Shown here: in pieces, positions 14,790-39,325 of the stretch
Layout: every line of letters begins with the position of its first letter
Numbering within the stretch: the stretch's first letter is position 1
Assembly (NCBI RefSeq): GCF_016903815.1
Contig: NZ_CP069973.1
Strand: one strand, 5' to 3'
Source of the DNA: Escherichia coli
GTDB lineage: Bacteria; Pseudomonadota; Gammaproteobacteria; Enterobacterales; Enterobacteriaceae
Length of the DNA stretch: 64,000 nt
Position numbers and translations under genes: made by a program
Notes under the pieces: model-generated
Databases searched by the model: none
What the model saw: the letters and a program-made list of their open reading frames with translations, nothing else
Told to the model about the DNA's origin: nothing

Positions 14790-14805
14790 CATGGAGTAAT
14801 TAACA

Positions 14806-21105: not shown

Positions 21106-21488
21106 GCACTCTTACACGCTCTCAGGTCGCCGCGAATATACGCGATATCCTACTAAGTGGCAGGAAGCTTACCCCAAAAGAGTTTGACGACATATTAAGG
21201 AAAGCCGGAAATCACGAACGTAGTCGCGTTTTAACGCTGTTACGCAACGATTGGGGAATTCCTGTTGAGCAGTTTAAAACAGAGGCGTATCACGTCACAG
21301 AACGCAATTTAGAAGCATACCACAGCGATAAAGACGAAACATTGAAGATCTGGAGGACGAACGCCAGATATGTAAAGACATTGCGTAAGGTAAACATAAC
21401 GTTGTCGTTGTTGCGTGGGCTGGTGGGTAAAGTGCCTGAAGACACGCTTAGAACTGTTTACAAGGGTATTGAAACCAAATACCTGTGA
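21102..21488 (+). CDS. Hypothetical protein
   Basis: 128-aa ORF, 4-bp overlap with the upstream gene. Confidence 0.4.
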   Translation: MSTLTRSQVAANIRDILLSGRKLTPKEFDDILRKAGNHERSRVLTLLRNDWGIPVEQFKTEAYHVTERNLEAYHSDKDETLKIWRTNARYVKTLRKVNITLSLLRGLVGKVPEDTLRTVYKGIETKYL

Positions 21489-21556
21489 TTGACAAAGCAG
21501 AAAGCCGACTTTGCGAGAGTCGGCTTTGAAGCAATTGAAATATATGAACTTTACAC

Positions 21557-22609: not shown

Positions 22610-23407
22610 TAGTGACAGATCGTGACAAGGCAGAGCAAAAAACGACCAATATAAGAGAAATATCCCTGCCCAATCGCCAAAAGCGCGGAGCGCGGAGCGC
22701 GGCAAGCGCCGCGAGAGGCGCAAGAAGGCGAACCTATCCATTGAAACGGTCAGAAGAGCGCATCGCGCTCGATGACCGAAGTCCCCACTAACACCGTTAA
22801 CGAAAGATCAAAGTCTTAGAAAAAAATGACGTTTCTTTGAAGGGCTTCCATCCGTAAAAATCAAATTTTGAGATAAAGTACTTATAGAAATTAATCACTC
22901 TATAAGAGTGAGTTGACGTGAGTTTGAAGTGAGCAACATATTAAAAATATATATAATAATCAAACATATAATAACAACTACTGAGCAAAAATCACCAGAA
23001 AACAACGTCAACGTAACGTCACTCTGTAAGCACTTTTTCAGTCACTTTTTGGGTTGAATACACGTATAAATCCCCAACCATGAAATTTGAGCGCGTAAGC
23101 ACGACTCTGAAAGGCTTTTTATCTTTTAACCATTTAATATACCTGAGGTATTGAAGAAGATTCTGAGACATATACTAGAACTTTACCGTGCACGACTAAC
23201 AACATAAACGTTATATTTATATATAAATCAATGAGATAAATACATCCCCATCCAAAAAACAAGCATAACGCAAAATTGCGTTATCAACTTAAAAGGTACG
23301 ATTGAATCTGACAGTCTGCTCTGAGCGAAATGTGGGCACGTTCACCATAAGTCTCCAGATTGAAACGAAATGATAGTGTTAAATGTTCGATAGTTACTTT
23401 TCTAAGC

Positions 23408-24400
23408 TCAACGTTCGTAATAGTAATCCGACACCTCAGTAAAATCTATTTCCTCCCTAGAAAGTAATGATTCCATCTCATCTAGTTTATCGATTTGAGG
23501 CAAAACACTTGTTGGTGAAATCACAACATTAAAGTCCTCATTATATCGGTGACCTACCCTTGTGAGCTCTTTACCTAATTGCAACAATATATAATCACGT
23601 AAAATAAGTTGATTCCGTCTAAATCGAATAAGACGATAGTAATGGAAGAAATCAGAACATTTTGATGAATCATAATTTCTACCATTCCACCCGGTTTTCC
23701 TCGTAGCTCGGAATAATGCTTGCTCTTGCGTATTTTTCCAAATGCTAAAATCAAAGTGACTTTTCGGGTTAGGATTTTCGTATGTTGCTTGAGGATAAAA
23801 ATTAGTAACACCAAATTGATGCTTGTCAATGATCTTTAAAGTCCGATTTTGTTCAGACAACATCCGCCTTAAGGACCTAGGAATTTCGAAACGCATTAGT
23901 TTGTTTTTATCCAAGATTCTTAATTCTCTTGGAAGCATCTCATGATCCCGTTCTAAATATCTTTCACACCGTTTCGGCACATACTGAAAATACACTGAAA
24001 AAAAACAAAATATATTATCAGAAACGAGAGGAGTAATATGTATTTTTTCTTGCTCAGGAACGTTTTGAACAAAATAGTATGCCGTTCCTTGCCAAATCAA
24101 CGATTGCGCTACTGCCTCCACCAATTCACGTATTGTTTCATCTACCGAGTATTTCCTATATCTAGCTTGTAAATTTCCAAACATTTTACGTATGAGTTCT
24201 TCGTCGTTAGTTTCGACTTGAAACAAATTGGTATCACCGTGATTTACAAAATTAAAAACTCTAGCAAAATCCTCATAAAACATCCTTTGATAGAAACCTG
24301 GTCGTTCATTCTTAGACTTGGTCAATAGTCTATCAACAAAACTTAATTGCTCAGGATCGACGCTATAACCGTAAAGGGGTATATTCTTGATAATTTTCAT
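23408..24400 (-). CDS. Unclassified 330-aa soluble protein, downstream gene of the cargo operon
   Basis: Long ORF with AAGGA Shine-Dalgarno; start ATG overlaps the upstream stop as ATGA; no TM segment and no catalytic motif recognised. Confidence 0.6.
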   Translation of the reverse strand: MKIIKNIPLYGYSVDPEQLSFVDRLLTKSKNERPGFYQRMFYEDFARVFNFVNHGDTNLFQVETNDEELIRKMFGNLQARYRKYSVDETIRELVEAVAQSLIWQGTAYYFVQNVPEQEKIHITPLVSDNIFCFFSVYFQYVPKRCERYLERDHEMLPRELRILDKNKLMRFEIPRSLRRMLSEQNRTLKIIDKHQFGVTNFYPQATYENPNPKSHFDFSIWKNTQEQALFRATRKTGWNGRNYDSSKCSDFFHYYRLIRFRRNQLILRDYILLQLGKELTRVGHRYNEDFNVVISPTSVLPQIDKLDEMESLLSREEIDFTEVSDYYYER

Positions 24401-26874
24401 TCAAAATCCTTATCGTATTCCACGCCAAAACGACGAGCCAACTCACTAACATGGTAATCGATCTTGAAGTCAATTTGCTCGAGTTGCGGGAAAATTTCGA
24501 GAGCACAAAAGAGATGCGATGCATCTGAATGGGAGTTTAAGAACTCTCTGACAACTTTGTTCGTATGAGATTTCCCTCGATTCATTCCCATTTGATCGCT
24601 AAAGCCATCATGTCTTGCGCGGCGCTCAAATTCCATTTTCCAGTTAAGACGAATCATATCTCTCGGTGATGCGCACAAGCTGAAATTGCGCGGATTTGAA
24701 AGAATCATCATTCTCTTCAAATACTGCTGTTTGTTGGGAACAGACTCGAGCCAAGACTTAAACCTATCAAGTACTGTTTTAGATAGTTTTGCATTATCGA
24801 AATAAGCACTGTAAAGGATAGCAAAACCTAGAACTGACATCAGATCGTTGATCGCGGATGAAAGGAGATGCAGTCGAAACTCGTTGTTTATATCGAGTTT
24901 CGGATCTACAAATTTGGTATCTGATGCCAGCAATGAGAGAACCATGAACATAGGGAATACCTTGCTCAGTTTATTTTCATCATTCTGTTCAAGCGCATGT
25001 ATACATTCCTCAGCCAACTCAAAATATATCTGTCCAAAATGATCCGGTAGTTCATCATCTTGCTCTTGTTCAATGATATGTCCCACAATTTCCACCCTAC
25101 CAAGAATAGCTATAGCTTCATCCTGTGTAACGACAAACTGTTTGAGCATTTCAGCAATATTAATTTCTGGTAATGCGTATAGCTTTTCAGAGTAGTGCTC
25201 GTACTTTCTGTATCTCTCCAAGAGCAGAGAAAGTTCATTAAACCAATGGGGAAACTTCAAATGATTATGTAGGCTAGCGAGAACGACTTGCGTTGCGGCT
25301 TCCGGCATCTTCATGTTTATCAGTGAGTTAACGAAATCTGGAACCATGTTTACGTGAAAATCGCATACTTCTGGCAGAATTTTAGAATATTGTTGTAATA
25401 ACTTCTGAACCGCCAACTGCTGGACGTACTTTGGTTTGGATAATCTCTGTCCTTCAATCTCTTTTTCGAATTCGATACGTTCTACGATAAAGGCCAACTC
25501 AACCTGCAGAAAAGCAGGCAAAGTGTGTAGAGAGGTCTCTGTCCAGATATCATCTTTAAAGAACTGCTCCAATTCTTTCTCAAAAGTAATCATGCGGCGT
25601 AACATTTCAAGGCAAAGATTGCTGCCTAATGCAGCCCATGCATCCGCAATTCCAACTTTTATCACCTTTTCCTCAAAATAATTAACGACATCAGACGGTG
25701 TAAAGGCTTTTTCAATGATCGTCTTCATTTTCCGAAGTTCACGTATACCAATATCGAACTGAAACTGTTGTGCATAAGTTAATATACGAGATGAGAATAG
25801 ACTGATGAGATCCAACCCGAGCTTGAAATCACCGGCTTTGAATGCAAGTTCAATATGGCCTACCAACCTATTGATAATTTCATTCTCTAACCAAAGATAA
25901 TTTGGTTCTTCTTCAACCGTTAATTGGCTCCTTGTTTTTAAAGCAATGGATGTTACACTGTCGCCAGCTAAGAACCATTGCTTATGTTTTATTCGTCTAG
26001 GGAACCAGTAACTTTGATAATCAATTCTGTGTTTCTGATTAAGGTAATGAAGAAGTAATGCCGAATAAACATTACTGAGAGCAGGTAAATTATCTCCGAG
26101 TCCTACTTTTTCACATATCAGGCGATCATCAATGTAGTTTAACTGCTCAAAGGCCAAATGTGCGGCTTTAGAGTGATGATTAGCTAAAGATACTGAATTC
26201 TTGGGATTAGACGCACCTTCGATGTGTCGTGCAATTCGTGGGAGTATTTCACTTCGGGCTAACTGATTTAGGTCAAAAAAATTGAATAATCTTTGACCTA
26301 ATGGGAACAGAGCTAAGGAACTAACAAGTGTCAGCAATGTTCCCATTGCATAAACGAAAAGACCGGGTTCAACCCCGAACAAGTGGAGAGCAGTTGCACT
26401 AAGACAAAACACCGCAGAAAGCACTAAAGTCCGCGAATACACATTACCTACCTGCTCGGTAGTAAGCATTTGTATAATATCTCGCCGAAGTCTGGTATAT
26501 CCTGTACTTAGAATGATACCTATTGTAGCAAAGTATATTGAAAATATAGCGGTAAGTATCTGTGCGTACAACCTAAGTTGATCAATATTAAATTTTTTTT
26601 CATCATAGCTAAGAGGATGAAGCAAAATCGTATTATTCCGAATATAATCTTCAACAAAACCCAGTGCAAATAACGTTAATATGACCCATAACAAATTTTT
26701 TAAACCTACCAACGCAAAAGACATAAAAACATGAGCGTTAGACTTAGCTTTAAAAACAGACGTACGATGTATGTATGACGCACGTTCTAAAATAAATCTA
26801 ACCCTCACAAGATCTGTTCTTAATTTCCAGAACCACTTTTGAGAAATAAGCCAAACCTTCATTATATCAATCAA
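24397..26874 (-). CDS. Unclassified 825-aa membrane-anchored protein (about four N-terminal TM helices plus a roughly 630-aa helical cytoplasmic region)
   Basis: Uninterrupted 2.5-kb ORF in AT-rich DNA; hydrophobic segments near residues 50-74, 102-124, 148-168 and 172-192; no Walker or nuclease motif seen. The track start is TTG; the first ATG is at 26862. Confidence 0.6.
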   Translation of the reverse strand: MIDIMKVWLISQKWFWKLRTDLVRVRFILERASYIHRTSVFKAKSNAHVFMSFALVGLKNLLWVILTLFALGFVEDYIRNNTILLHPLSYDEKKFNIDQLRLYAQILTAIFSIYFATIGIILSTGYTRLRRDIIQMLTTEQVGNVYSRTLVLSAVFCLSATALHLFGVEPGLFVYAMGTLLTLVSSLALFPLGQRLFNFFDLNQLARSEILPRIARHIEGASNPKNSVSLANHHSKAAHLAFEQLNYIDDRLICEKVGLGDNLPALSNVYSALLLHYLNQKHRIDYQSYWFPRRIKHKQWFLAGDSVTSIALKTRSQLTVEEEPNYLWLENEIINRLVGHIELAFKAGDFKLGLDLISLFSSRILTYAQQFQFDIGIRELRKMKTIIEKAFTPSDVVNYFEEKVIKVGIADAWAALGSNLCLEMLRRMITFEKELEQFFKDDIWTETSLHTLPAFLQVELAFIVERIEFEKEIEGQRLSKPKYVQQLAVQKLLQQYSKILPEVCDFHVNMVPDFVNSLINMKMPEAATQVVLASLHNHLKFPHWFNELSLLLERYRKYEHYSEKLYALPEINIAEMLKQFVVTQDEAIAILGRVEIVGHIIEQEQDDELPDHFGQIYFELAEECIHALEQNDENKLSKVFPMFMVLSLLASDTKFVDPKLDINNEFRLHLLSSAINDLMSVLGFAILYSAYFDNAKLSKTVLDRFKSWLESVPNKQQYLKRMMILSNPRNFSLCASPRDMIRLNWKMEFERRARHDGFSDQMGMNRGKSHTNKVVREFLNSHSDASHLFCALEIFPQLEQIDFKIDYHVSELARRFGVEYDKDFE

Positions 26875-27055
26875 GTGATACCTGCCTTCTCATCTCTACA
26901 TGCAACATAAAAATGCTTACTATGGTGGCAAACAAAATCAAGAATCATATGTTTGAACACTTTTTACGCACGAATTATCCGGTGTAAGATACTTATAGTC
27001 AAATGGCAGGGCTAATCTCATCTGTATTGAGCTATTAACAGCCATATGTAAGACT

Positions 27056-27084
27056 AAGAAACGCGCCCAGCAAAGGCGCGTTCT
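27056..27084 (-). terminator. Hairpin terminator after the small minus-strand ORF
   Basis: ACGCGCC-TTTGCTG-GGCGCGT stem-loop followed by a T-rich tract on the minus strand. Confidence 0.4.
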
Positions 27085-27264
27085 GCATCAGGTAAGTTTG
27101 CTGGGGTCTACGGTTTCCATCCAATCTGGAGCAATTCCCAAACGTTCCGCTATCTCTTCGTTGGTCATGTCTTCAGTTGAGAAATTAGCCAGAGAATCGT
27201 TAACTTCAGGATAGTCAGGGGAGAGTAACAGGTATTCCCGCAACGCTTTCAGATCTTTTTCCAT
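27085..27264 (-). CDS. Small ORF (59 aa) upstream of the cargo operon, not on the ORF track
   Basis: My own translation MEKDLKALREYLLLSPDYPEVNDSLANFSTEDMTNEEIAERLGIAPDWMETVDPSKLT; followed on the minus strand by a hairpin. Confidence 0.3.
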
Positions 27265-27431
27265 TTTAACGCTCCTTGTTTATTGACAGTCGAACGATGG
27301 TGAAGATTCTTGCCATCTCAAGTACAGGCAAGAAAATCCACCAGAACACCAAATTATCTCATAAGGTTAAATCGGTGTCGGGCTATTTCTTTCGGCTAGG
27401 TGAGTGTACCGCCTTAACCACCGGCAATTAT

Positions 27432-27564
27432 CATTGTCTCAATTGGGTATACCGTAATGACAAGGTGATACAAAGTCTCAATAGGGTTGTATAGGAACAT
27501 TTTGACTACACAAAATGCATTATGTATCATTTGCACTTATATTCACAACCCTATTGAGACAATG
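27432..27564. promoter_or_regulatory. res-like repeat cluster directly upstream of the serine recombinase gene
   Basis: 16-bp inverted repeat GTCTCAATAGGGTTGT (27475-27490) / ACAACCCTATTGAGAC (27545-27560) plus a partial direct copy CATTGTCTCAAT at 27432-27443. Confidence 0.45.
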
Positions 27565-27566
27565 CA

Positions 27567-28193
27567 ATGAACGTTAGAATTTACTGCCGAGCATCAACTG
27601 AGGGGCAACACGCTGATCGAGCACTTACCAGCCTACGTGAATTTTCAAAATCAAAAGGCTGGCAGATTGCAGGAGAGTATATAGAAAATGCTAGCGGGGC
27701 GAAGCTTGAGCGCGTAGAGCTTATGCGGCTATTGTCTGAAGCCCAGTCCGGCGATCTGTTGCTAGTGGAAGCTATAGATCGTCTGAGTCGCCTAGAACAT
27801 AGCGCATGGGTCGAACTGAAAGATACGCTCAACCGAAAAGGGTTAATCATCGTATCAATGGATTTACCAACGAGCTGGCAGATGGTCGAGATGGCAGGCA
27901 ATGACCTAACCAGCGGCATCCTGAGAGCCGTAAATGCCATGTTGATTGATATCCTTGCCACAATGGCACGGCAGGATTACGAAACACGTCGTAAACGCCA
28001 ACAGCAAGGCATTGAGCGAGCTAAAAGCGAAGGAATATACATTGGCAGGGAGAAAAATCAGGAAGCCCGAGAGATCGTTAGAGAGATGTTGGAGCAAGGA
28101 GTAAAACCTGAACTCATCATGAAGGCAGCAGGAATCAGCCGAGCGACTTACTACCGTATAAAAAGTGAGCTGTCAGTCGTAAAATCAGAATAA
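27567..28193 (+). CDS. Serine recombinase (resolvase/invertase family)
   Basis: 208 aa; N-terminal VRIYCRASTEGQ catalytic-serine motif and C-terminal HTH. Confidence 0.85.
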   Translation: MNVRIYCRASTEGQHADRALTSLREFSKSKGWQIAGEYIENASGAKLERVELMRLLSEAQSGDLLLVEAIDRLSRLEHSAWVELKDTLNRKGLIIVSMDLPTSWQMVEMAGNDLTSGILRAVNAMLIDILATMARQDYETRRKRQQQGIERAKSEGIYIGREKNQEAREIVREMLEQGVKPELIMKAAGISRATYYRIKSELSVVKSE

Positions 28194-28327
28194 CCTTTGA
28201 AAGGTCGTCAGGCTTGTTTCATCTGCTAAAAGCCAGCATTTCTGACCATAATACCTGGGGGCACCTACTGGGGCACCCACCAAAATCGAAAGACAAATAA
28301 GTTATAATTCAATCTGTTAGTTTACTT

Positions 28328-28350
28328 TTCGATTCCTGCAGGGGACACCA
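28328..28350 (+). repeat. attR direct repeat: 23 bp identical to the argW 3-prime end, TTCGATTCCTGCAGGGGACACCA
   Basis: Matches the recalled 3-prime end of E. coli tRNA-Arg (argW); shares a 15-mer with 18028-18042. Confidence 0.8.
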
Positions 28351-28790
28351 GATACCCTTCAAACCAAATCTACCTTCACCCCGTAAAAGATGGGTTTGGC
28401 GCACACTAGCCCTATATCTACTCATTTTTACTGCAACAGGTTGAAATCTCAGCACTGTCAGAAAGCGCTGATGACTAAACAGCCCTGGGCCGGGCGATGT
28501 AACCATCATACAGAATCCTGATAGCGAAATATGGCGTGACTCGATACTTCACTCTGCAATGCATTCCTTGATGAATTCGCAGGCCCGTGATACTCGGGAC
28601 AGGTCGCTGAATGACGACAATGTCCTGGAAATCAGCGAACCGCGTATCCGGAGTACATTTGAGCGACTGTACCAGAACATGAATGAGGCGTTTGGATTAG
28701 GTGATTATTAGTTGGGCTAAGCATTTTTGTATTATTATTTTCCGGTTGAGGGATATGGAGATATCGACAACAACCGGAAAAAGTTTACGT

Positions 28791-30038
28791 CTATATTGCT
28801 GAAGGTACAGGCGTTTCCATAACTATTTGCTCGCGTTTTTTACTCAGGAAGAAAATGCCAAATAGCAACATCAGGCAGACAATACCCGAAATTGCGAAGA
28901 AAACTGTCTGGTAGCCTGCGTGGTCAAAGAGTATCCCAGTCGGCGTTGAAAGCAGCACAATCCCAAGCGAACTGGCAATTTGAAAACCAATCAGAAAGAT
29001 CGTCGACGACAGGCGCTTATCAAAGTTTGCCACGCTGTATTTGAAGACGGATATGACACAAAGTGGAACCTCAATGGCATGTAACAGCTTCACTAATGAA
29101 ATAATCCAGGGGTTAACGAACAACGCGCAGGAAAGGATACGCAACGCCATAATCACAACACCGATAAGTAATGCATTTTTTGGCCCTACCCGATTCACAA
29201 AGAAAGGAATAATCGCCATGCACAGCGCTTCGAGTACCACCTGGAATGAGTTGAGATAACCATACAGGCGCGTTCCTACATCGTGTGATTCGAATAAACC
29301 TGCATAAAAGACAGGAAAGAGTTGTTGATCAAAAATGTTATAGAAAGACCACGTCCCCACAATAAATATGACGAAAACCCAGAAGTTTCGATCCTTGAAA
29401 ACTGCGATAAAATCCTCTTTTTTTACCCCTCCCGCATCCGCCGCTATGCACTGGTGATCCTTATCTTTAAAACGCATGTTGATCATCATAAATACAGCGC
29501 CAAATAGCGAGACCAACCAGAAGTTGATATGGGGACTGATACTAAAAAATATACCGGCAAAGAACGCGCCAATAGCATAGCCAAAAGATCCCCAGGCGCG
29601 CGCTGTTCCATATTCGAAATGAAAATTTCGCGCCATTTTTTCGGTGAAGCTGTCAAGCAAACCGCATCCCGCCAGATACCCCAGGCCAAAAAAGAGCGCC
29701 CCCAGAATTAGACCTACAGAAAAATTGCTTTGCAGTAACGGTTCATAAACGTAAATCATAAACGGTCCGGTCAAGACCAGAATGAAACTCATACACCAGA
29801 TGAGCGGTTTCTTCAGACCGAGTTTATCCTGAACGATGCCGTAGAACATCATAAATAGAATGCTGGTAAACTGGTTGACCGAATAAAGTGTACCTAATTC
29901 CGTCCCTGTTAATCCTAGATGTCCTTTCAGCCAAATAGCGTATAACGACCACCACAGCGACCAGGAAATAAAAAAGAGAAATGAGTAACTGGATGCAAAA
30001 CGATAGTACGCATTTCTGAATGGAATATTCAGTGCCAT
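28791..30038 (-). CDS. cscB: Sucrose:proton symporter (MFS, LacY-like)
   Basis: 415-aa 12-TM protein with a LacY-like N-terminus, in the csc gene order. Confidence 0.85.
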   Translation of the reverse strand: MALNIPFRNAYYRFASSYSFLFFISWSLWWSLYAIWLKGHLGLTGTELGTLYSVNQFTSILFMMFYGIVQDKLGLKKPLIWCMSFILVLTGPFMIYVYEPLLQSNFSVGLILGALFFGLGYLAGCGLLDSFTEKMARNFHFEYGTARAWGSFGYAIGAFFAGIFFSISPHINFWLVSLFGAVFMMINMRFKDKDHQCIAADAGGVKKEDFIAVFKDRNFWVFVIFIVGTWSFYNIFDQQLFPVFYAGLFESHDVGTRLYGYLNSFQVVLEALCMAIIPFFVNRVGPKNALLIGVVIMALRILSCALFVNPWIISLVKLLHAIEVPLCVISVFKYSVANFDKRLSSTIFLIGFQIASSLGIVLLSTPTGILFDHAGYQTVFFAISGIVCLMLLFGIFFLSKKREQIVMETPVPSAI

Positions 30039-30099
30039 AATTACCTGCCTGTCGTTAAAAAATTCATGTCCTATTTAGAGATAAGAGCGGCCTCGCCGT

Positions 30100-31023
30100 T
30101 TACTTCTCACCTTCCAGTTCTTGTCGACATGGCAGCGCTGTCATTGCCCCTTTCGCTGTTACTGCAAGCGCTCCGCAACGTTGAGCGAGATTGATAATTC
30201 GTCGCATTTCTCTCTCATCTGTAGATAATCCCGTAGAGGACAGACCTGTGAGTAACCCGGCAACGAACGCATCTCCCGCCCCAGTGCTATCGACACAATT
30301 CACAGACATTCCAGCAAAATGGTGAACTTGTCCTCGATAACAGACCACCACCCCTTCTGCACCTTTAGTCACCAACAGCATGGCGATCTCATACTCTTTT
30401 GCCAGCGCGCATATATCCCGATCGTTCTGTGTTTTTCCACTGATAAGTCGCCATTCTTCTTCCGAGAGCTTGACGACATCCGCCAGTTGTAGCGCCTGCC
30501 GCAAACACAAGCGGAACAAATGCTCGTCTTGCCATAGATCTTCACGAATATTGGGATCGAAGCTGACAAAACCTCCGGCATGCCGGATCGCCGTCATCGC
30601 AGTAAATGCGCTGGTACGCGAAGGCTCGGCAGACAACGCAATTGAACAGAGATGTAACCATTCGCCATGTCGCCAGCAGGGCAAGTCTGTCGTCTCTAAA
30701 AAAAGATCGGCACTGGGGCGGACCATAAACGTAAATGAACGTTCTCCTTGATCGTTCAGATCGACAAGCACCGTGGATGTCCGGTGCCATTCATCTTGCT
30801 TCAGATACGTGATATCGACACCCTCAGTTAGCAGCGTTCTTTGCATTAACGCACCAAAAGGATCATCACCGACCCGACCTATAAACCCACTTGTTCCGCC
30901 TAATCTGGCGATTCCCACCGCAACGTTAGCTGGCGCGCCGCCAGGACAAGGCAGTAGCCGCCCGTCTGATTCTGGCAAGAGATCTACGACCGCATCCCCT
31001 AAAACCCATACTTTGGCTGACAT
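30100..31023 (-). CDS. cscK: Fructokinase (PfkB family)
   Basis: 307 aa; ribokinase-family motifs (GDAVVD, DSTGAGDAFVAG). Confidence 0.9.
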   Translation of the reverse strand: MSAKVWVLGDAVVDLLPESDGRLLPCPGGAPANVAVGIARLGGTSGFIGRVGDDPFGALMQRTLLTEGVDITYLKQDEWHRTSTVLVDLNDQGERSFTFMVRPSADLFLETTDLPCWRHGEWLHLCSIALSAEPSRTSAFTAMTAIRHAGGFVSFDPNIREDLWQDEHLFRLCLRQALQLADVVKLSEEEWRLISGKTQNDRDICALAKEYEIAMLLVTKGAEGVVVCYRGQVHHFAGMSVNCVDSTGAGDAFVAGLLTGLSSTGLSTDEREMRRIINLAQRCGALAVTAKGAMTALPCRQELEGEK

Positions 31024-31128
31024 TTTTTTCCCTTAAATTCATCTGACTTACGCATAGTGATAAACCTCTTTTTCGCAAAATCGTCATGGATTTACTAAAA
31101 CATGCATATTCGATCACAAAACGTCATA

Positions 31129-31204
31129 GTTAACGTTAACATTTGTGATATTCATCGCATTTATGAAAGTAATGGACTTTATTTTTATAAAAGTTAACGT
31201 TAAC
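31129..31204. promoter_or_regulatory. Two identical 12-bp palindromes GTTAACGTTAAC (31129-31140, 31193-31204) in the cscK-cscA divergent promoter region; candidate CscR operators
   Basis: Perfect palindromes 64 bp apart between divergent csc genes, typical of LacI-family operators. Confidence 0.45.
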
Positions 31205-31229
31205 AATTCACCAAATTTGCTTAACCAGG

Positions 31230-32672
31230 ATGATAAAAATGACGCAATCTCGATTACATGCGGCGCAAAACGCACTAGCAAAACTTCACGAGCGCCGAGG
31301 TAACACTTTCTATCCCCATTTTCACCTCGCGCCTCCTGCCGGGTGGATGAACGATCCAAACGGCCTGATCTGGTTTAACGATCGTTATCACGCGTTTTAT
31401 CAACATCACCCGATGAGCGAACACTGGGGGCCAATGCACTGGGGACATGCCACCAGCGACGATATGATCCACTGGCAGCATAAGCCTATTGCGCTAGCGC
31501 CAGGAGACGAGAATGACAAAGACGGGTGTTTTTCAGGTAGTGCTGTCGATGACAATGGTGTCCTCTCACTTATCTACACCGGACACGTCTGGCTCGATGG
31601 TGCAGGTAATGACGATGCAATTCGCGAAGTACAATGTCTGGCTACCAGTCGGGATGGTATTCATTTCGAGAAACAGGGTGTGATCCTCACTCCACCAGAA
31701 GGAATCATGCACTTCCGCGATCCTAAAGTGTGGCGTGAAGCCGACACATGGTGGATGGTTGTCGGGGCGAAAGATCCAGGCAACACGGGGCAGATCCTGC
31801 TTTATCGCGGCAGTTCATTGCGTGAATGGACCTTCGATCGCGTACTGGCCCACGCTGATGCGGGTGAAAGCTATATGTGGGAATGTCCGGACTTTTTCAG
31901 CCTTGGCGATCAGCATTATCTGATGTTTTCCCCGCAGGGAATGAATGCCGAGGGATACAGTTACCGAAATCGCTTTCAAAGTGGCGTAATACCCGGAATG
32001 TGGTCGCCAGGACGACTTTTTGCACAATCCGGGCATTTTACTGAACTTGATAACGGGCATGACTTTTATGCACCACAAAGCTTTTTAGCGAAGGATGGTC
32101 GGCGTATTGTTATCGGCTGGATGGATATGTGGGAATCGCCAATGCCCTCAAAACGTGAAGGCTGGGCAGGCTGCATGACGCTGGCGCGCGAGCTATCAGA
32201 GAGCAATGGCAAACTTCTACAACGCCCGGTACACGAAGCTGAGTCGTTACGCCAGCAGCATCAATCTATCTCTCCCCGCACAATCAGCAATAAATATGTT
32301 TTGCAGGAAAACGCGCAAGCAGTTGAGATTCAGTTGCAGTGGGCGCTGAAGAACAGTGATGCCGAACATTACGGATTACAGCTCGGCACTGGAATGCGGC
32401 TGTATATTGATAACCAATCTGAGCGACTTGTTTTGTGGCGGTATTACCCACACGAGAATTTAGATGGCTACCGTAGTATTCCCCTCCCGCAGGGTGACAT
32501 GCTCGCCCTAAGGATATTTATCGATACATCATCCGTGGAAGTATTTATTAACGACGGGGAGGCGGTGATGAGTAGCCGAATATATCCGCAGCCAGAAGAA
32601 CGGGAACTGTCGCTCTATGCCTCCCACGGAGTGGCTGTGCTGCAACATGGAGCACTCTGGCAACTGGGTTAA
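31230..32672 (+). CDS. cscA: Sucrose-6-phosphate hydrolase / invertase (GH32)
   Basis: GH32 motifs WMNDPNG, FRDP and WECPD. Confidence 0.9.
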   Translation: MIKMTQSRLHAAQNALAKLHERRGNTFYPHFHLAPPAGWMNDPNGLIWFNDRYHAFYQHHPMSEHWGPMHWGHATSDDMIHWQHKPIALAPGDENDKDGCFSGSAVDDNGVLSLIYTGHVWLDGAGNDDAIREVQCLATSRDGIHFEKQGVILTPPEGIMHFRDPKVWREADTWWMVVGAKDPGNTGQILLYRGSSLREWTFDRVLAHADAGESYMWECPDFFSLGDQHYLMFSPQGMNAEGYSYRNRFQSGVIPGMWSPGRLFAQSGHFTELDNGHDFYAPQSFLAKDGRRIVIGWMDMWESPMPSKREGWAGCMTLARELSESNGKLLQRPVHEAESLRQQHQSISPRTISNKYVLQENAQAVEIQLQWALKNSDAEHYGLQLGTGMRLYIDNQSERLVLWRYYPHENLDGYRSIPLPQGDMLALRIFIDTSSVEVFINDGEAVMSSRIYPQPEERELSLYASHGVAVLQHGALWQLG

Positions 32673-32679
32673 CATAATA

Positions 32680-33675
32680 TCAGGTGGAACAACGGATCAA
32701 CAGCGGGCAAGGGATCCGCGTCACTCTTCCCCCTTCACGATCTTCAATAATATGCAATGCAGCTTCCCGCCCGATAATGTCATGTGGAAGCTGAATTGTG
32801 GTCAGCGGCGGTAAAAACAGATGCCCGACGCCAACCAGATTATCAAAGCCCATTACGGCGACATCCTGCGGGATACGTACCCCCTTCGCCAGGAGAACCT
32901 GATAAGCGACAAAGGCTGCGCGATCGTTACCACATATCAGAACATCAAAATCTGGTTTGCCAGATTTGAAGTGGGCATTGAGTAAACTTGCGAGATCGGT
33001 GTAGTGATCATCACCTGTTGCCATGTGAAATTGTTTCACCTCAGCCAGATCTCGTCCAGCATCACGCCAGGCCTGCTCAAATCCCTGCCGACGATACCCT
33101 GTTGCCAACGCACTTTCCGGTAGCCAGAAGCATAACGGTTGACGATAGCCCGCCGCGAGCAAATGCTGTGTTGATTCATATTGTGCAGTGTAATCATCAG
33201 GGATATAACTGGGTAACGCTGGGTCATCCGCCACACAGTTCGCCAATACAATATTTTCACCATACAGAGACTCAGGCAGCGTGATATGTCGCAGCCCCAT
33301 TGTAGTATAGATAATGCCATCCGGACGGTGGGCAAGCAGCTGACGAGCAGCACGGGCAGCGTCATCTTCAGAAAAAATATTGATTAAAAAACTATTCCAG
33401 CCGAACTCGCTGGCGGTTTGCTCAATGGCAAGCAGAATATCAACAGAGAAAGGAGTGGTAGCAGTGTCCTGCGCCAGCACGGCGAGAGTCGACGGCTTAC
33501 GTCCTTGAGCGCGCATCTTACGGGCGGAAAGATCAGGAACATAATTCAGGGTCTGGATTGCCTGCAATACGCGGTCACGCGTTGCAGGACGCACAGATTC
33601 TGCATTATGCATCACCCGGGAGACTGTCATCATCGACACTCCCGCCAGGCGTGCGACATCCTTTAATGAAGCCAT
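32680..33675 (-). CDS. cscR: LacI-family sucrose repressor
   Basis: From the internal Met, MASLKDVARLAGVSMMTVSRVMHN... is a LacI-type HTH; the ORF-track extension upstream is probably not translated. Confidence 0.85.
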   Translation of the reverse strand: MASLKDVARLAGVSMMTVSRVMHNAESVRPATRDRVLQAIQTLNYVPDLSARKMRAQGRKPSTLAVLAQDTATTPFSVDILLAIEQTASEFGWNSFLINIFSEDDAARAARQLLAHRPDGIIYTTMGLRHITLPESLYGENIVLANCVADDPALPSYIPDDYTAQYESTQHLLAAGYRQPLCFWLPESALATGYRRQGFEQAWRDAGRDLAEVKQFHMATGDDHYTDLASLLNAHFKSGKPDFDVLICGNDRAAFVAYQVLLAKGVRIPQDVAVMGFDNLVGVGHLFLPPLTTIQLPHDIIGREAALHIIEDREGGRVTRIPCPLLIRCST

Positions 33676-33904
33676 ACCCAAGCCGTTTGCCGTAAAACGG
33701 GCACTGTAGCAGAAACAGACGTCACTGGCGAGATCCAACGATATTCTCGACGCCCTATCACCCGACACGGCAATACAATAAAAAATAACAATAATTCCCG
33801 GACAATTGTACCCAATTCCGCCTCTGTTCTCGCCAACGAGTAACCATGTAGGCAAGTAGGTAAAACATGCCAACTGGCATCGCCAACCTGGAGAAGAAAA
33901 TATA

Positions 33905-34136
33905 AATATGGATCATTGTGCTGCCGCTGTATCCCGACATCAGCCCGGAAATTATTGCGATTGCTATCGGTTCAGGTGCGATTGGCTGCACGATCGTTAC
34001 GGACTCGCTTTTCTGGCTGGTGAAGCAATATTGCGGCGCTACGCTCAATGAAACATTTAAATACTATACGACCGCGACATTTATCGCTTCAGTCGTCGCT
34101 CTGGCGGGCACATTCCTGCTGTCATTTATCATCTAA
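33905..34136 (+). pseudogene. dsdX: 3-prime remnant of the D-serine permease gene dsdX (truncated by the csc insertion)
   Basis: Encodes only a GntP-family C-terminus (...[41 protein letters not shown]...) immediately upstream of dsdA. Confidence 0.6.
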
Positions 34137-34153
34137 GCGCAAAGAGACGTACT

Positions 34154-35482
34154 ATGGAAAACGCTAAAATGAACTCGCTCATCGCCCAGTATCCGTTGGT
34201 AAAGGATCTGGTTGCTCTTCAAGAAACCACCTGGTTTAATCCTGGCACGACCTCATTGGCTGAAGGTTTACCTTATGTTGGCCTGACCGAACAGGATGTT
34301 CAGGACGCCCATGCGCGCTTATCCCGTTTTGCAGCCTATCTGGCAAAAGCATTTCCTGAAACTGCTGCTACTGGGGGGATTATTGAATCAGAACTGGTTG
34401 CCATTCCGGCTATGCAAAAACGGCTGGAAAAGGAATATCAACAACCGATCAGCGGGCAACTGCTACTGAAAAAAGATAGCCATTTGCCCATTTCCGGCTC
34501 CATAAAAGCACGCGGCGGGATTTATGAAGTCCTGGCACATGCAGAAAAACTGGCTCTGGAAGCGGGGTTGCTGACGCTTGAAGATGACTACAGCAAACTG
34601 CTTTCTCCGGAGTTTAAACAGTTCTTTAGCCAATACAGCATTGCTGTGGGCTCAACCGGAAATCTGGGGTTATCAATCGGCATTATGAGCGCCCGCATTG
34701 GCTTTAAGGTGACAGTACATATGTCTGCTGATGCCCGGGCATGGAAAAAAGCGAAACTGCGCAGCCATGGCGTTACGGTCGTGGAATATGAGCAAGATTA
34801 TGGTGTTGCAGTCGAGGAAGGACGTAAAGCAGCGCAGTCTGACCCGAACTGTTTCTTTATTGATGACGAGAATTCCCGCACGTTGTTCCTTGGGTATTCC
34901 GTCGCTGGCCAGCGTCTTAAAGCGCAATTTGCCGAGCAAAGTCGTATTGTCGATGCTGATAACCCTCTGTTTGTCTATCTGCCGTGTGGTGTTGGCGGTG
35001 GTCCTGGTGGCGTCGCATTCGGGCTTAAACTGGCATTTGGCGATCATGTTCACTGCTTTTTTGCCGAACCAACGCACTCCCCTTGTATGCTGTTAGGCGT
35101 CCATACAGGATTACACGATCAGATTTCTGTTCAGGATATTGGTATCGACAACCTTACCGCAGCGGATGGCCTTGCAGTTGGTCGCGCATCAGGCTTTGTC
35201 GGGCGGGCAATGGAGCGTCTACTGGATGGCTTCTATACCCTTAGCGATCAAACCATGTATGACATGCTTGGCTGGCTGGCGCAGGAAGAAGGCATTCGTC
35301 TTGAACCTTCGGCACTGGCGGGTATGGCCGGGCCTCAGCGCGTGTGCGCATCAGTAAGTTACCAACAGATGCACGGTTTCAGCGCAGAACAACTGCGTAA
35401 TGCCACTCATCTGGTGTGGGCGACGGGAGGTGGAATGGTGCCGGAAGAAGAGATGGAGCAATATCTGGCAAAAGGCCGCTAA
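34154..35482 (+). CDS. dsdA: D-serine dehydratase
   Basis: 442 aa; [31 protein letters not shown]... matches recalled DsdA. Confidence 0.95.
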
Positions 35483-35589
35483 TTACTTTTCAATTCAGCA
35501 TCGCCATCCTTTCCCTGGGTGAGCGATGCTGCCGATGGCGCAGACTTAAGGTCCCTGGTCTTACCTGCTATAACCCCCTCCTTTTATCA

Positions 35590-37128
35590 TCACCCAACGC
35601 CTTTCGCTGTAAACGGCGGTTTCGCAAACCAAACCAAAACTGTAAGTAAGATAAAAGCAATAGCCGCCATACGGAAAATCTCATTTGCAGAAATTGAAAG
35701 TGACTGCTGAGTTATTTCATTATTAATTTCATTAAGAACCCCTGAAAGCGAACCATAGTATTTATCCATAATTTGTGACGATGAATTAAACACGGGGTTA
35801 AATTGATCGATGGTTGCTGTCAACTGACTATGGTGTAACGATTCGCGTCGTCCCCACAGCGTCATTGTCAACGACGTACCAACTGATCCTGACAAGGTGC
35901 GAAAAAAATTACTCATACTCGAGGCATTGGCAAATTTATTATCTGGCAACCCTGAAAACGAAATCGTTGTTAAGGGTAAAAAGAAACAGGCAACGGCGAA
36001 TCCCTGGAAAAACTGTGGCAAAATGATGCCTGTAAAATCAATCGTTGGCATAAATGTCACAGAACGCCAGTAATAGCAAACCGCATACATTAAAAAACTA
36101 AATGTCACCAACAACCGCATATCAATTTTGTTGCCATAACGTCCTATCAAAGGTGATATTAATAGCGGCATGATGCCGATGGGCGCATAGGCAAGTCCGG
36201 CCCATATCGCATTATACCCCATCGTTTCCTGGAGTAACTGCGGCATAAGGACTATCGCCCCAGAGTAAAATAAATACGCGCATGTGATACTCACAATACC
36301 AATGGTGAAATTACGGGACTTAAACAAACTGAGATCAAGAATCGGGTTCTCTGAGGTCGACTCCCAAATGACTAAAGAAATCAGAGAAATAACTGACACT
36401 ACTGTTAGTATTATTATTGTACTCGAGTTGAACCAATCCAGGTCGCGCCCTTTATCAAGCATTATCTGCAAGCCACCAACACCGAGCACTAACAGGGTCA
36501 GTCCTGGTAGATTCATTTTGACCGGTGAAGTCTCAGTTTCTCTTCCTTTAAGTAAGGTTAAGCATAATGTCAGAACGATAATCCCCATAGGGACATTGAT
36601 TAAAAATATCCAACCCCAGCTAAAGTTATCACAAATATAACCGCCCAATATCGGCCCACATATCGGCGCGATAATCACGGTCATAGACCATAATGCCAGA
36701 GCAAATGTTCTTTTTTCTGGTGGATAATTCCTTAATAATAAACTCTGTGACAGTGGAATTAACGGCCCCGCCATTAACCCCTGAACGACTCTAAAAAATA
36801 TCAGCACATCAAGATTGGTCGATAGGCTACACATTAATGAAGATAGCGAAAAAAAGGTTACTGAAAGTAAAAATAATCTTAATTCGCCTATTCTTTGTGC
36901 CAACCTGCCGGTAACAGGGATCGCAATGGCATTTGCTACACCAAACGAAGTGATAACCCAGGTGCCTTCGTCTGTTGATGCTCCCAGAAAGCCAGATATT
37001 GTCGGTATTGCGACGTTAGAAATAGTGGAATCCAACATTTGCATAAACGTCGCTAATGACAATGCAATAGTGACGCACCATAACGTCCCACCGGTTAATG
37101 GTGCCGGAGTTGATTTAGTGATTGCCAT
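35590..37128 (-). CDS. emrY: MFS multidrug efflux pump
   Basis: 512-aa 14-TM EmrB-like protein, adjacent to emrK and evgAS. Confidence 0.9.
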   Translation of the reverse strand: MAITKSTPAPLTGGTLWCVTIALSLATFMQMLDSTISNVAIPTISGFLGASTDEGTWVITSFGVANAIAIPVTGRLAQRIGELRLFLLSVTFFSLSSLMCSLSTNLDVLIFFRVVQGLMAGPLIPLSQSLLLRNYPPEKRTFALALWSMTVIIAPICGPILGGYICDNFSWGWIFLINVPMGIIVLTLCLTLLKGRETETSPVKMNLPGLTLLVLGVGGLQIMLDKGRDLDWFNSSTIIILTVVSVISLISLVIWESTSENPILDLSLFKSRNFTIGIVSITCAYLFYSGAIVLMPQLLQETMGYNAIWAGLAYAPIGIMPLLISPLIGRYGNKIDMRLLVTFSFLMYAVCYYWRSVTFMPTIDFTGIILPQFFQGFAVACFFLPLTTISFSGLPDNKFANASSMSNFFRTLSGSVGTSLTMTLWGRRESLHHSQLTATIDQFNPVFNSSSQIMDKYYGSLSGVLNEINNEITQQSLSISANEIFRMAAIAFILLTVLVWFAKPPFTAKGVG

Positions 37129-38291
37129 TAAAGTTGTCCATTATGCGAAATAATGTTGCTAATTTCTTTTTCTATCGGACTGGTATCGATAACTAAAGCC
37201 TTACTGGTATAAGCAGGCATGGACGTCACGGTTGAAGCCAGCTCAGGCATCTCGGCAATGTCTTCGTTCTTCGTATCAATAGTTGCTGTCATCGATAAAC
37301 CAATACGTAAGGGATGTTCCATGAGTTCTTTTGGATCAAGAGAAACTTCAACCGGTACACGCTGAACGATTTTGATCCAGTTCCCTGTCGCATTTTGTGC
37401 AGGTAATAAGGAGAACGCATTGCCGGTTCCCATATTGATCCCTGTCACCCGACCATGAAACACAACATTTTCACCATAAAGATCGCTGATAATATTGACC
37501 GATTGACCAATCCGTACATCCGTGAGTTGTGTTTCTTTAAAGTTGGCATTAACCCACATTTGACGTGCCGGTACGACAGCCATTAACGATTGTCCGGGAC
37601 TCACTGTTTCGCCGACCTGAACGCTTCTCTGGGCAATATAGCCGGTAACAGGACTCTTAATATCCGTACGTTTAAGCGCTAACCAGGCTTCTTTGGTTGC
37701 ATCCGCCGCTTCAACGACTTGTGGCTGACGGTTTAATGGTGTGTTCATTACTAAAGCTTTATTCGCTTTATAAGCCTGGATAGCGGCATTCAATGCCGCT
37801 TTGCTACTTATTAACGTATCTTTGGTATGCTCCAGCGTTTCTTTTGAAATAACCCCCTGCTTCGCTAAAGGTACACGACGGTTATAATCTTCTAAAGATT
37901 GTTGATACTGAATACGTGCTGAAGCGACTTCGGCACTGTATTGTTTATCCTGTAAGTACAGTTTATTCGTTTGCCGAACAATATTGGCCAGATTATTTTT
38001 AGCTTTATTGAGTGCGATAGTGGCATCAGTCTTATCCAGTGAGACTAAAATGTCACCCTGTCGAACGTAGTTCGTATCTTTATGATTAACGACAGTGACG
38101 CTGCCTGAAACTTGTGCAGAAATTGGATCTGCATTCCCCGTGACATAGGCATCATCTGTACTAATCATGTCTTCTAATTCCATTGACCAATAGGCATAGG
38201 CACCTGAAAACGCAATAAATAAAACTACCGCCAATAAAGAAAAGTATTTTCTTCTGTTAGAATGTTTTTTATTTGAATTAATCTGTTCCAC
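37128..38291 (-). CDS. emrK: Multidrug efflux membrane fusion protein
   Basis: 387-aa EmrA-like periplasmic adaptor; stop overlaps the emrY start. Confidence 0.9.
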   Translation of the reverse strand: MEQINSNKKHSNRRKYFSLLAVVLFIAFSGAYAYWSMELEDMISTDDAYVTGNADPISAQVSGSVTVVNHKDTNYVRQGDILVSLDKTDATIALNKAKNNLANIVRQTNKLYLQDKQYSAEVASARIQYQQSLEDYNRRVPLAKQGVISKETLEHTKDTLISSKAALNAAIQAYKANKALVMNTPLNRQPQVVEAADATKEAWLALKRTDIKSPVTGYIAQRSVQVGETVSPGQSLMAVVPARQMWVNANFKETQLTDVRIGQSVNIISDLYGENVVFHGRVTGINMGTGNAFSLLPAQNATGNWIKIVQRVPVEVSLDPKELMEHPLRIGLSMTATIDTKNEDIAEMPELASTVTSMPAYTSKALVIDTSPIEKEISNIISHNGQL

Positions 38292-38706
38292 TATTATCTC
38301 TCATTTCGCATAGATGAAATTTATGAATTGAATGAAAAGAGTATTCATTCTTCATATCAAACACAGTGCATGTGTTGCACATTGTCCCAGGAACGTTGGA
38401 GGCCTAATTTAAATGAGGTGCAAAAAAAACAACAGAGGACTAAACCGTGGCTTTTGCAATACAATTCTTACGCATGTAGGATTAGTGAGAAGACTTATAG
38501 TACTAATGTGAAACTATAAATCATCGGTACAATCCCTGATTTTATTGTTGACATTTCATATATGCCGACTATTTATATGGTATACTTGTCGAATTATCTT
38601 AAAGGAAGCTCAAATTTTCTTATTTTTATTGAGAAAATGAGATGATGCCTTATGTCTGTATTACTACAGGGAGAAGGGAGATGCTTCATTGCAAAGGGAA
38701 TAATCT

Positions 38707-39321
38707 ATGAACGCAATAATTATTGATGACCATCCTCTTGCTATCGCAGCAATTCGTAATTTATTGATCAAAAACGATATTGAAATCTTAGCGGAGTTGA
38801 CTGAAGGGGGAAGTGCCGTTCAGCGGGTGGAAACACTTAAACCTGATATCGTCATCATTGATGTCGATATCCCCGGAGTTAACGGTATCCAGGTGTTAGA
38901 AACGCTGAGGAAGCGCCAATATAGCGGAATTATTATTATCGTCTCCGCTAAAAATGACCATTTTTACGGGAAACATTGTGCTGATGCTGGCGCTAATGGA
39001 TTCGTGAGTAAAAAAGAAGGCATGAACAATATCATTGCGGCTATTGAAGCTGCAAAAAATGGCTACTGCTATTTCCCCTTCTCTCTCAACCGGTTTGTTG
39101 GAAGTTTAACGTCCGACCAGCAAAAACTCGACTCCTTATCGAAACAAGAAATTAGTGTCATGCGATATATTCTTGATGGCAAGGATAATAATGACATTGC
39201 TGAAAAAATGTTCATCAGCAACAAAACTGTCAGCACTTATAAAAGTCGCCTGATGGAAAAATTAGAATGTAAATCACTGATGGATCTTTACACATTCGCA
39301 CAACGTAACAAAATCGGCTAA
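38707..39321 (+). CDS. evgA: Response regulator EvgA (NarL/LuxR family)
   Basis: 204 aa with receiver domain and LuxR-type HTH. Confidence 0.95.
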   Translation: MNAIIIDDHPLAIAAIRNLLIKNDIEILAELTEGGSAVQRVETLKPDIVIIDVDIPGVNGIQVLETLRKRQYSGIIIIVSAKNDHFYGKHCADAGANGFVSKKEGMNNIIAAIEAAKNGYCYFPFSLNRFVGSLTSDQQKLDSLSKQEISVMRYILDGKDNNDIAEKMFISNKTVSTYKSRLMEKLECKSLMDLYTFAQRNKIG

Positions 39322-39325
39322 CCAC

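What the first reader, a model, noticed from the sequence alone, without database searches (positions are those of the whole stretch)
28351..34136. csc sucrose regulon inserted next to the argW hotspot, replacing dsdC and most of dsdX
cscB-cscK and divergent cscA, plus cscR, lie between the island attR and dsdA. Only a C-terminal dsdX fragment remains (33905-34136) and dsdC is absent. This would make the strain sucrose-positive but unable to regulate and import D-serine normally, an arrangement known from some E. coli lineages.
Basis: partly seen in the sequence, partly recalled or inferred. Interest (0 to 1): 0.3.

Follow-up and report, generated by a model that had tools for sequence, protein, structure and literature searches.

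The report
Known csc sucrose genes replacing dsdCX
This is the well-known E. coli arrangement in which the four-gene csc sucrose-utilisation cluster sits beside the argW tRNA site in place of dsdC and most of dsdX; about half of all complete E. coli genomes carry it, so it is ordinary.

Summary
Between a 23-bp copy of the argW 3' end (28328-28350) and dsdA lie intact cscB (28791-30038, -), cscK (30100-31023, -), cscA (31239-32672, +) and cscR (32680-33675, -). After them comes only the last 72 codons of dsdX (33919-34136, not 33905) and an intact dsdA (34154-35482). No dsdC and no 5' part of dsdX occur anywhere in the 64-kb window.

Relative to K-12, 2,368 bp (dsdC plus the first 1,120 nt of dsdX) are replaced by 5,568 bp. 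The same right junction, with the same breakpoint, is found in 2,658 of 5,426 complete E. coli genomes, including O157:H7. All 13 published E. coli W csc primers map to the window.

The cscK-cscA intergenic region carries two exact GTTAACGTTAAC palindromes (probable CscR operators) and a near-consensus CRP site. The arrangement and its phenotype are already published: slow or high-sucrose-dependent sucrose use, silent dsdA, and D-serine sensitivity.

The only local feature is that two mobile elements, a P22-like prophage and a 10.3-kb integrase island, are stacked at argW upstream. They separate csc from the tRNA gene, which lies outside the window. Verdict: real, correctly interpreted, already known, low interest.

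The parts
28328..28350 (+). 23-bp copy of the argW 3' end. It is the attR of the upstream 10.3-kb integrase island and marks where backbone sequence resumes.
   Evidence: Exact match to the last 23 nt of K-12 argW. In genomes with no island at this site, the homologous sequence is the real tRNA-Arg gene.
28529..28711 (+). 5' fragment of a DUF4942 gene (60 codons), a remnant of the distal end of a CP4-type island lying between the att copy and cscB.
   Evidence: PF13708 match, E 9.8e-9, profile positions 8-62 of 190. About 73% nt identity to full-length DUF4942 genes that sit after cbtA/DUF5983/DUF957 at island ends. The fragment is present next to cscB in other csc+ genomes.
28791..30038 (-). 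cscB, sucrose:H+ symporter of the LacY family, 415 aa, intact.
   Evidence: PF01306 E 9e-194; TIGR00882 594.6 bits. 413 of 415 residues identical to O157:H7 CscB. Wild-type residues at L51, C327, Q353, L363 and F371.
30100..31023 (-). cscK, PfkB-family fructokinase, 307 aa, intact.
   Evidence: NF006957 fructokinase equivalog, 505.9 bits against a cutoff of 450. DSTGAGD motif at residue 245.
31024..31238 (.). Divergent cscKB / cscA control region. It holds two exact 12-bp palindromes GTTAACGTTAAC (31129-31140 and 31193-31204), which are probable CscR operators. It also holds a CRP-like site at 31144-31159 (TGTGATATTCATCGCA, 1 mismatch) and a weaker one at 31103-31118 (3 mismatches).
   Evidence: The palindrome occurs nowhere else in the 64 kb with 0 or 1 mismatch. 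Only 3 CRP sites with at most 1 mismatch occur in the window. The literature reports two operators and two cAMP-CRP sites in this region (PMC3938415).
31239..32672 (+). cscA, GH32 invertase (sucrose hydrolase), 477 aa, intact.
   Evidence: PF00251 E 1.8e-106 plus PF08244; TIGR01322 477.8 bits. Motifs WMNDPNG (36), RDP (160) and ECP (215) are present.
32680..33675 (-). cscR, LacI-family repressor, 331 aa, intact. It is convergent with cscA, with a 7-bp gap between the two stop codons.
   Evidence: PF00356 plus PF00532, E 9.4e-94. 328 of 331 residues identical to O157:H7 CscR. Gap measured.
33676..33918 (.). Region upstream of cscR, ending at the right-hand junction of the csc block with dsdX.
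   Evidence: K-12 homology stops at 33919. The segment is conserved together with the junction in 2,658 genomes.
33919..34136 (+). dsdX 3' remnant: codons 374-445 of 445, with no start codon and no promoter of its own.
   Evidence: 98.2% nt and 98.6% aa identity to the K-12 dsdX 3' end. NF007395 profile positions 374-445 of 445. Annotated as a pseudogene in RefSeq genomes.
34154..35482 (+). dsdA, D-serine ammonia-lyase, 442 aa, intact, but separated from DsdC and from the dsdX promoter.
   Evidence: TIGR02035 807 bits. 98.4% identical to K-12 DsdA. The same gene in the same context is silent in EHEC (PMC7486766).
18028..18042 (+). 15-bp copy of the argW 3' end: the attR of the P22-like prophage and the left boundary of the 10.3-kb island. 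Listed as context for the tandem array at argW.
   Evidence: Window 17704-18045 is 97.7% identical to the K-12 CPS-53 right end (torI to pawZ).

Best explanation
This is the canonical chromosomal csc (non-PTS sucrose catabolism) regulon of E. coli at its usual site between argW and dsdA. An ancient event replaced dsdC and the first 373 codons of dsdX at that site.

Mechanism, taken from the published system: CscB imports sucrose with a proton, CscA (a GH32 invertase) splits it into glucose and fructose, and CscK phosphorylates the fructose. CscR represses the divergent cscA and cscKB promoters by binding the two GTTAACGTTAAC palindromes. cAMP-CRP activates both promoters. De-repression needs high sucrose, so growth on sucrose is expected to be slow or to depend on high sucrose concentration.

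dsdA is intact but has lost its activator DsdC and the dsdX promoter. It should therefore be essentially silent, and the strain should be unable to use D-serine and should be inhibited by it, because uptake through CycA and SstT persists.

The locus is inherited vertically. In this strain a P22-like prophage and then a 10.3-kb integrase island inserted in tandem at argW, pushing the tRNA gene more than 28 kb away from csc.

Shown here: gene content, gene integrity, junctions and population frequency. Inferred from the literature: expression and phenotype.
For: - Gene identities and integrity.
- Junctions against K-12: homology stops 3 nt after the pawZ att copy (K-12 locus position 12602) and resumes at dsdX nt 1121 (window 33919).
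- No dsdC or 5' dsdX in the window.
- The right junction is fully covered in 2,658 of 5,426 complete genomes. All other genomes match only from query position 244, which is window 33919, so the breakpoint is a single shared one.
- The left junction is covered in 2,622 genomes.
- The basal arrangement yfdC-argW-DUF4942'-cscBKAR-'dsdX-dsdA is seen in strain JNE25-003.
- 97.5% nt identity to O157:H7 across the locus.
- 13 of 13 published E. coli W csc primers map with 0-1 mismatch, including the flank primers at 28615 and 34174.
- Operator-like palindromes and CRP sites.
- Literature on regulation and phenotype: PMC3938415, PMC4366372, PMC7486766, PMC3032704, PMC11251922.
Against: - No phenotype or expression data exist for this strain.
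- Five csc+ isolates with no visible defect in the locus failed to grow on sucrose (PMC11251922), so an intact sequence does not guarantee the phenotype.
- The consensus sigma-70 scan found no promoter-like site in 28300-35600. That fits CRP-dependent promoters but gives no positive support.
- The operator assignment rests on palindrome and position. The original operator paper (Jahreis 2002) could not be read.
- A second dsdCXA copy elsewhere in the genome cannot be excluded from a 64-kb window.
Confidence: 0.93

Rival explanations
1. The csc cluster is intact in sequence but phenotypically cryptic in this strain, giving no useful growth on sucrose under ordinary conditions. The practical consequence of the locus would then be only the loss of D-serine tolerance.
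For: Stephens et al. found five csc+ scr- isolates unable to grow on sucrose; one had a frameshift and the other four had no obvious defect in the locus (PMC11251922). Wild-type W needs more than 1% sucrose for de-repression (PMC3938415). This copy has full-length CscR and none of the known CscB gain-of-function substitutions.
Against: All four genes are full length, with catalytic motifs and family scores above the curated cutoffs. They are 97-99.5% identical to the O157:H7 proteins, in a strain background shown to use sucrose through csc (PMC7486766).
Confidence: 0.15
2. The strain keeps D-serine catabolism through a second, complete dsdCXA copy elsewhere in the chromosome, as reported for K1 strains. 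In that case the local truncation would have no phenotypic effect.
For: Moritz and Welch 2006 (title cited) report two dsdCXA copies in K1 strains. Some genomes show 2-3 places for the dsdX'-dsdA query. Stephens et al. note a few strains with both loci complete.
Against: The complete genome that is 100% identical over 22200-40200 (strain 7/2) has only one place matching the dsdX'/dsdA query (row H26). csc and D-serine use are reported as largely mutually exclusive.
Confidence: 0.05
3. The csc genes are cargo of the adjacent 10.3-kb integrase island or of the prophage, and arrived recently with it.
For: They lie immediately next to the island's right end. The resolvase end of the island is also next to csc in O157:H7.
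Against: A 23-bp att copy separates the island from csc. In genomes with an empty argW site, csc abuts the real tRNA gene. The csc/dsdX breakpoint is identical in about 49% of complete genomes, so it predates these insertions.
Confidence: 0.02

Closest known systems
csc regulon of E. coli EC3132 / W (cscB, cscK, cscA, cscR; Bockmann 1992, Jahreis 2002, Sabri/Steen 2013-14)
   Same: Same four genes, order and orientation, and the same divergent control region. The flanks are also the same: 13 of 13 published W primers map, including the flank primers in the DUF4942 fragment and in dsdA.
   Different: Only allelic differences (0-1 mismatch per primer). Here argW is displaced by two inserted elements. 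E. coli W has its own lambdoid prophage at argW (PMC3032704).
Truncated dsd locus of E. coli O157:H7 EDL933/TUV93-0 (cscBKAR-'dsdX-dsdA; Connolly 2015, O'Boyle 2020)
   Same: Identical dsdX breakpoint and an identical 72-aa remnant. The locus is 97.5% nt identical from 27057 onward, including the resolvase gene (z3622) upstream.
   Different: CscK is 307 aa here and 304 aa in O157:H7, owing to a stop-codon polymorphism. The 8-bp CCGGATAA repeats that mediated the LCV10B deletion in EHEC each differ by one base here (28154 CCGTATAA by script; about 33797 CCGGACAA read from the sequence).
Intact dsdCXA locus of K-12 / UPEC CFT073
   Same: dsdA and everything downstream (emrYK, evgAS ... glk) is collinear with K-12 at 97-98% identity.
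   Different: dsdC, the dsdC-dsdX intergenic promoter region and dsdX codons 1-373 (2,368 bp in K-12) are missing, replaced by 5,568 bp.

Membership tests
E. coli csc (chromosomally encoded sucrose catabolism) regulon | cscB: LacY-family sucrose/H+ symporter, full length | tested here: met
   415 aa. PF01306 E 9e-194; TIGR00882 594.6 bits against a cutoff of 220.
E. coli csc (chromosomally encoded sucrose catabolism) regulon | cscK: PfkB-family fructokinase | tested here: met
   NF006957 equivalog, 505.9 bits against a cutoff of 450. DSTGAGD motif present.
E. coli csc (chromosomally encoded sucrose catabolism) regulon | cscA: GH32 invertase with catalytic motifs | tested here: met
   PF00251 and PF08244; TIGR01322 477.8 bits against a cutoff of 356.4. 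WMNDPNG, RDP and ECP motifs present.
E. coli csc (chromosomally encoded sucrose catabolism) regulon | cscR: LacI-family repressor encoded convergently downstream of cscA | tested here: met
   331 aa. PF00356 plus PF00532. 7-bp gap between the cscA and cscR stop codons.
E. coli csc (chromosomally encoded sucrose catabolism) regulon | Divergent cscKB and cscA promoters with CscR operators and cAMP-CRP sites in the intergenic region | tested here: inconclusive
   Two exact 12-bp palindromes unique to this region, one CRP site with 1 mismatch and one with 3 mismatches. This is consistent with PMC3938415, but binding was not tested and the original operator sequences could not be read.
E. coli csc (chromosomally encoded sucrose catabolism) regulon | Chromosomal position between argW and dsdA | tested here: met
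   argW 3' copy at 28328-28350, dsdA at 34154. Same junctions in about 2,600 genomes.
E. coli csc (chromosomally encoded sucrose catabolism) regulon | Confers growth on sucrose, repressed at low sucrose concentration | not testable with these tools
   Needs growth assays.
Functional dsdCXA D-serine tolerance locus | dsdC LysR-type activator present | tested here: not met
   tblastn with K-12 DsdC against the window gives a best E of 0.54.
Functional dsdCXA D-serine tolerance locus | Full-length dsdX (GntP-family permease, 445 aa) | tested here: not met
   Only residues 374-445 are encoded.
Functional dsdCXA D-serine tolerance locus | dsdA D-serine ammonia-lyase intact | tested here: met
   442 aa. 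TIGR02035 807 bits. 98.4% identical to K-12.

The most novel reading that the evidence does not exclude
In the wild-type csc/'dsdX-dsdA arrangement, dsdA may not be simply silent. It could be the distal part of the cscA transcription unit.

cscA and dsdA are on the same strand. Only a 7-bp gap and the antisense body of cscR separate them. No intrinsic terminator is predicted on that strand before the native dsdX-dsdA junction. High sucrose, by de-repressing cscAp, could therefore drive read-through into dsdA and give sucrose-conditional D-serine detoxification.

O'Boyle et al. showed that cscAp drives dsdA once cscR is deleted. As far as the section read shows, they did not test the intact locus under sucrose induction.
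Probability: 0.1. Interest if true: 0.35.

Novelty: already known. Interest (0 to 1): 0.07.

Why it matters
The locus matters only as annotation. It predicts a sucrose-utilising (slow or high-sucrose-dependent), D-serine-sensitive metabolic type, which is typical of phylogroups B1, D and E and of intestinal pathotypes. That trade-off has been linked to niche restriction, gut versus urinary tract (PMC4366372, PMC7486766). It adds nothing new to that picture. It does confirm that argW is a busy integration hotspot in this strain, with three successive acquisitions side by side.

Tried and rejected
- tRNA scan of the window: no tRNA gene found, so argW itself lies outside the window.
- Consensus sigma-70 scan of 28300-35600: no hits. 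This is uninformative for CRP-dependent promoters.
- Inverted-repeat search upstream of cscB (30000-30140) and upstream of cscR (33640-33960): nothing found. There is therefore no evidence for a separate operator at those places.
- Attempts to read Jahreis et al. 2002 (PMC135337) and Moritz and Welch 2006 (PMC1698345): neither is held. Their content is cited only through papers that cite them.
- csc as cargo of the neighbouring island: rejected. An att copy lies between them, and csc abuts the real argW in island-free genomes.
- The idea that z3622 of O'Boyle et al. is the DUF4942 fragment: rejected. The 5,637-bp deletion and the CCGGATAA repeats map z3622 to the resolvase gene.
- PADLOC and Pfam scans of the island's two large ORFs: no hits. 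Left as an item noticed in passing.
- The expensive protein-database, structure-prediction and metagenome tools were not used. Near-identical annotated genomes and the published literature settled the question.
Full report
**Observation**

The ORF list and family scans show four intact genes at the stated place:

- cscB: 28791-30038, minus strand, 415 aa. LacY_symp, E 9e-194.
- cscK: 30100-31023, minus strand, 307 aa. NCBIfam fructokinase equivalog, 505.9 bits against a cutoff of 450.
- cscA: 31239-32672, plus strand, 477 aa. GH32 N- and C-terminal domains; TIGR01322, 477.8 bits.
- cscR: 32680-33675, minus strand, 331 aa. LacI HTH plus periplasmic-binding-like domain.

The mechanical ORFs extend cscA by 3 codons and cscR by 66 codons upstream. 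The RefSeq annotation of an identical locus uses the shorter starts.

CscA carries the GH32 motifs WMNDPNG, RDP and ECP. CscK carries the PfkB DSTGAGD motif.

Downstream, a 72-codon ORF (33918-34136) matches only profile positions 374-445 of 445 of the DsdX equivalog model. dsdA (34154-35482, 442 aa) is complete.

**Junctions**

BLAST of the window against the K-12 argW-evgA region gives three matches:

- a short 126-nt prophage-internal match (16388-16513, 86.5% identity);
- the right end of CPS-53 (torI to pawZ) at window 17704-18045;
- everything from 33919 onward, at 97.8% identity.

The rest of the window, to 64000, is collinear with K-12 at 97.2%.

K-12 positions 12603-14967 of the fetched locus have no counterpart anywhere in the window. 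This stretch holds dsdC, the dsdC-dsdX intergenic region and the first 1,120 nt of dsdX. tblastn with DsdC gives a best E of 0.54, and DsdX matches only at residues 374-445. The base-by-base comparison puts the breakpoint at 33919.

On the left, the last 23 nt of argW occur at 28328-28350, so the finding's start coordinate is the first base after an att copy. A 15-nt copy, identical to K-12 pawZ, sits at 18028-18042. ARAGORN finds no tRNA in the window, so the real argW lies upstream of position 1.

The window therefore reads as follows:

- 1-18042: P22-like prophage, right part, ending in attR.
- 18043-28350: 10.3-kb island with a P4-type integrase, ending in a second attR.
- 28351-33918: the csc block, 5,568 bp.
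- 33919 onward: 'dsdX-dsdA-emrYK-evgAS and the rest of the K-12-like backbone.

**How common it is**

The 6-kb region is at least 80% covered in 2,645 of 5,426 complete E. coli genomes.

A 485-bp probe across the cscR-upstream/'dsdX/dsdA junction is fully covered in 2,658 genomes. In the other genomes listed in the spread sample, nearly all match only from probe position 244, which is window 33919. The dsdX breakpoint is thus one shared, old event.

The left flank (att copy, DUF4942 fragment, cscB 3' end) is at least 80% covered in 2,622 genomes. In many of these the match begins inside an annotated tRNA-Arg. Strain JNE25-003 shows the empty-site arrangement yfdC-argW-DUF4942'-cscB-cscK-cscA-cscR-'dsdX-dsdA-emrY.

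csc is therefore resident backbone for about half of the species. The prophage and the island in this window are later insertions into argW.

O157:H7 strain G5295 is 97.5% identical from 27057 to 42160 and has the same remnant. Protein identities to that strain are CscB 413/415, CscA 472/477, CscR 328/331 and DsdA 439/442. CscK is 307 aa here and 304 aa there.

All 13 E. coli W primers published in PMC3938415 map at the expected places with 0-1 mismatch. They include the two flank primers used to amplify 'the csc operon', at 28615 and 34174.

**How it works**

The steps below marked as taken from the literature are not shown for this strain.

- Pathway (literature). CscB takes up sucrose by proton symport, CscA hydrolyses it, and CscK phosphorylates the fructose. 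(PMC11251922) agrees on CscB and CscR but describes CscA as a sucrose phosphorylase.
- Regulation (literature). CscR represses the divergent cscA and cscKB operons at two operators in the intergenic region. Two cAMP-CRP sites activate them. De-repression needs more than 1% sucrose unless cscR, an operator or cscB is mutated (PMC3938415).
- Sequence support here. The 215-bp intergenic region holds two exact copies of the perfect palindrome GTTAACGTTAAC (31129-31140 and 31193-31204). There is no other copy in the 64 kb, even allowing one mismatch. It also holds a CRP-like site with one mismatch at 31144-31159 and a weaker one at 31103-31118. Assigning the palindromes as the CscR operators is an inference.
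- Expected sucrose phenotype. CscR is full length, and CscB has the wild-type residue at L51, C327, Q353, L363 and F371. The expected phenotype is therefore the wild-type one: slow growth, or growth only at high sucrose. Some csc+ isolates do not grow on sucrose at all.
- D-serine (literature). Without DsdC the dsd system is non-functional in EHEC carrying this same architecture. D-serine still enters through CycA and SstT and is toxic. dsdA is a 'silent enzyme' that can be reactivated by deletions fusing it to cscAp or z3622p (PMC7486766).
- Mapping z3622. The published 5,637-bp deletion and its CCGGATAA repeats map onto the O157:H7 locus. This shows that z3622 is the resolvase gene at the end of the island, not the DUF4942 fragment.
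- Second dsd copy. The complete genome that is 100% identical over 22200-40200 (strain 7/2) has a single place matching the dsdX'/dsdA probe. This argues against a second dsd copy in this lineage.

**Origin of the left flank**

The 440 bp between the att copy and cscB contain a 60-codon 5' fragment of a DUF4942 gene. Full-length homologues, about 73% nt identical, lie at the distal end of CP4-type tRNA islands, after cbtA, DUF5983 and DUF957. This suggests, weakly, that csc was acquired beside or within an older argW island that has since decayed.

**Comparison with what is known, and novelty**

The arrangement is explicitly described in the literature:

[quoted passage not shown] - csc is universal in phylogroups D and E and nearly universal in B1 (PMC11251922).

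Every sequence-testable defining feature of the csc regulon is met. Two of the three defining features of a functional dsdCXA locus are tested and not met.

The one reading with some novelty that the data leave open is sucrose-induced read-through from cscAp across antisense cscR into dsdA. No plus-strand terminator is predicted between the cscA stop and the native dsdX-dsdA junction. I rate this at about 10%.

Noticed in passing
window 18043-28350: A 10.3-kb integrative element bounded by two argW-3' copies (15 bp at 18028-18042, 23 bp at 28328-28350). It carries a P4-type integrase (18207-19493), small HTH genes, a rolling-circle Rep-like gene (21752-22609, PF23343) and a serine resolvase (27567-28193). 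It also carries two low-GC (0.33-0.41) overlapping ORFs of 330 aa (23408-24400, -) and 821 aa (24397-26862, -) with no Pfam hit and no PADLOC hit. These could be uncharacterised cargo, possibly a defence system.
   Followed up: partly
window 1-18042: The right part of a P22-like prophage integrated at argW. Its last 342 bp (torI plus attR, 17704-18045) are 97.7% identical to the right end of the K-12 cryptic prophage CPS-53. Against the otherwise near-identical strain 7/2, the prophage is mosaic: only patches of 1-12362 match, at 94-99% identity.
   Followed up: partly
window 27057-28350 and L004 1381-2700: The resolvase end of the island, together with its att copy, is shared with O157:H7 at 97.5% identity. 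The resolvase gene corresponds to z3622 of O'Boyle et al. 2020, whose promoter reactivated dsdA after a 5,637-bp deletion. The 8-bp CCGGATAA repeats that mediated that deletion each carry one mismatch in this window (28154 CCGTATAA; about 33797 CCGGACAA).
   Followed up: yes
window 28529-28711: A 60-codon 5' fragment of a DUF4942 gene between the att copy and cscB, conserved in csc+ genomes. Full-length homologues mark the distal end of CP4-type islands. This hints that csc arrived beside an older, now decayed, argW island.
   Followed up: partly
window 30100-30108 (cscK 3' end): CscK is 307 aa here (C-terminus ...CRQELEGEK) and 304 aa in O157:H7 G5295 (...CRQELE), a stop-codon polymorphism.
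   Followed up: no
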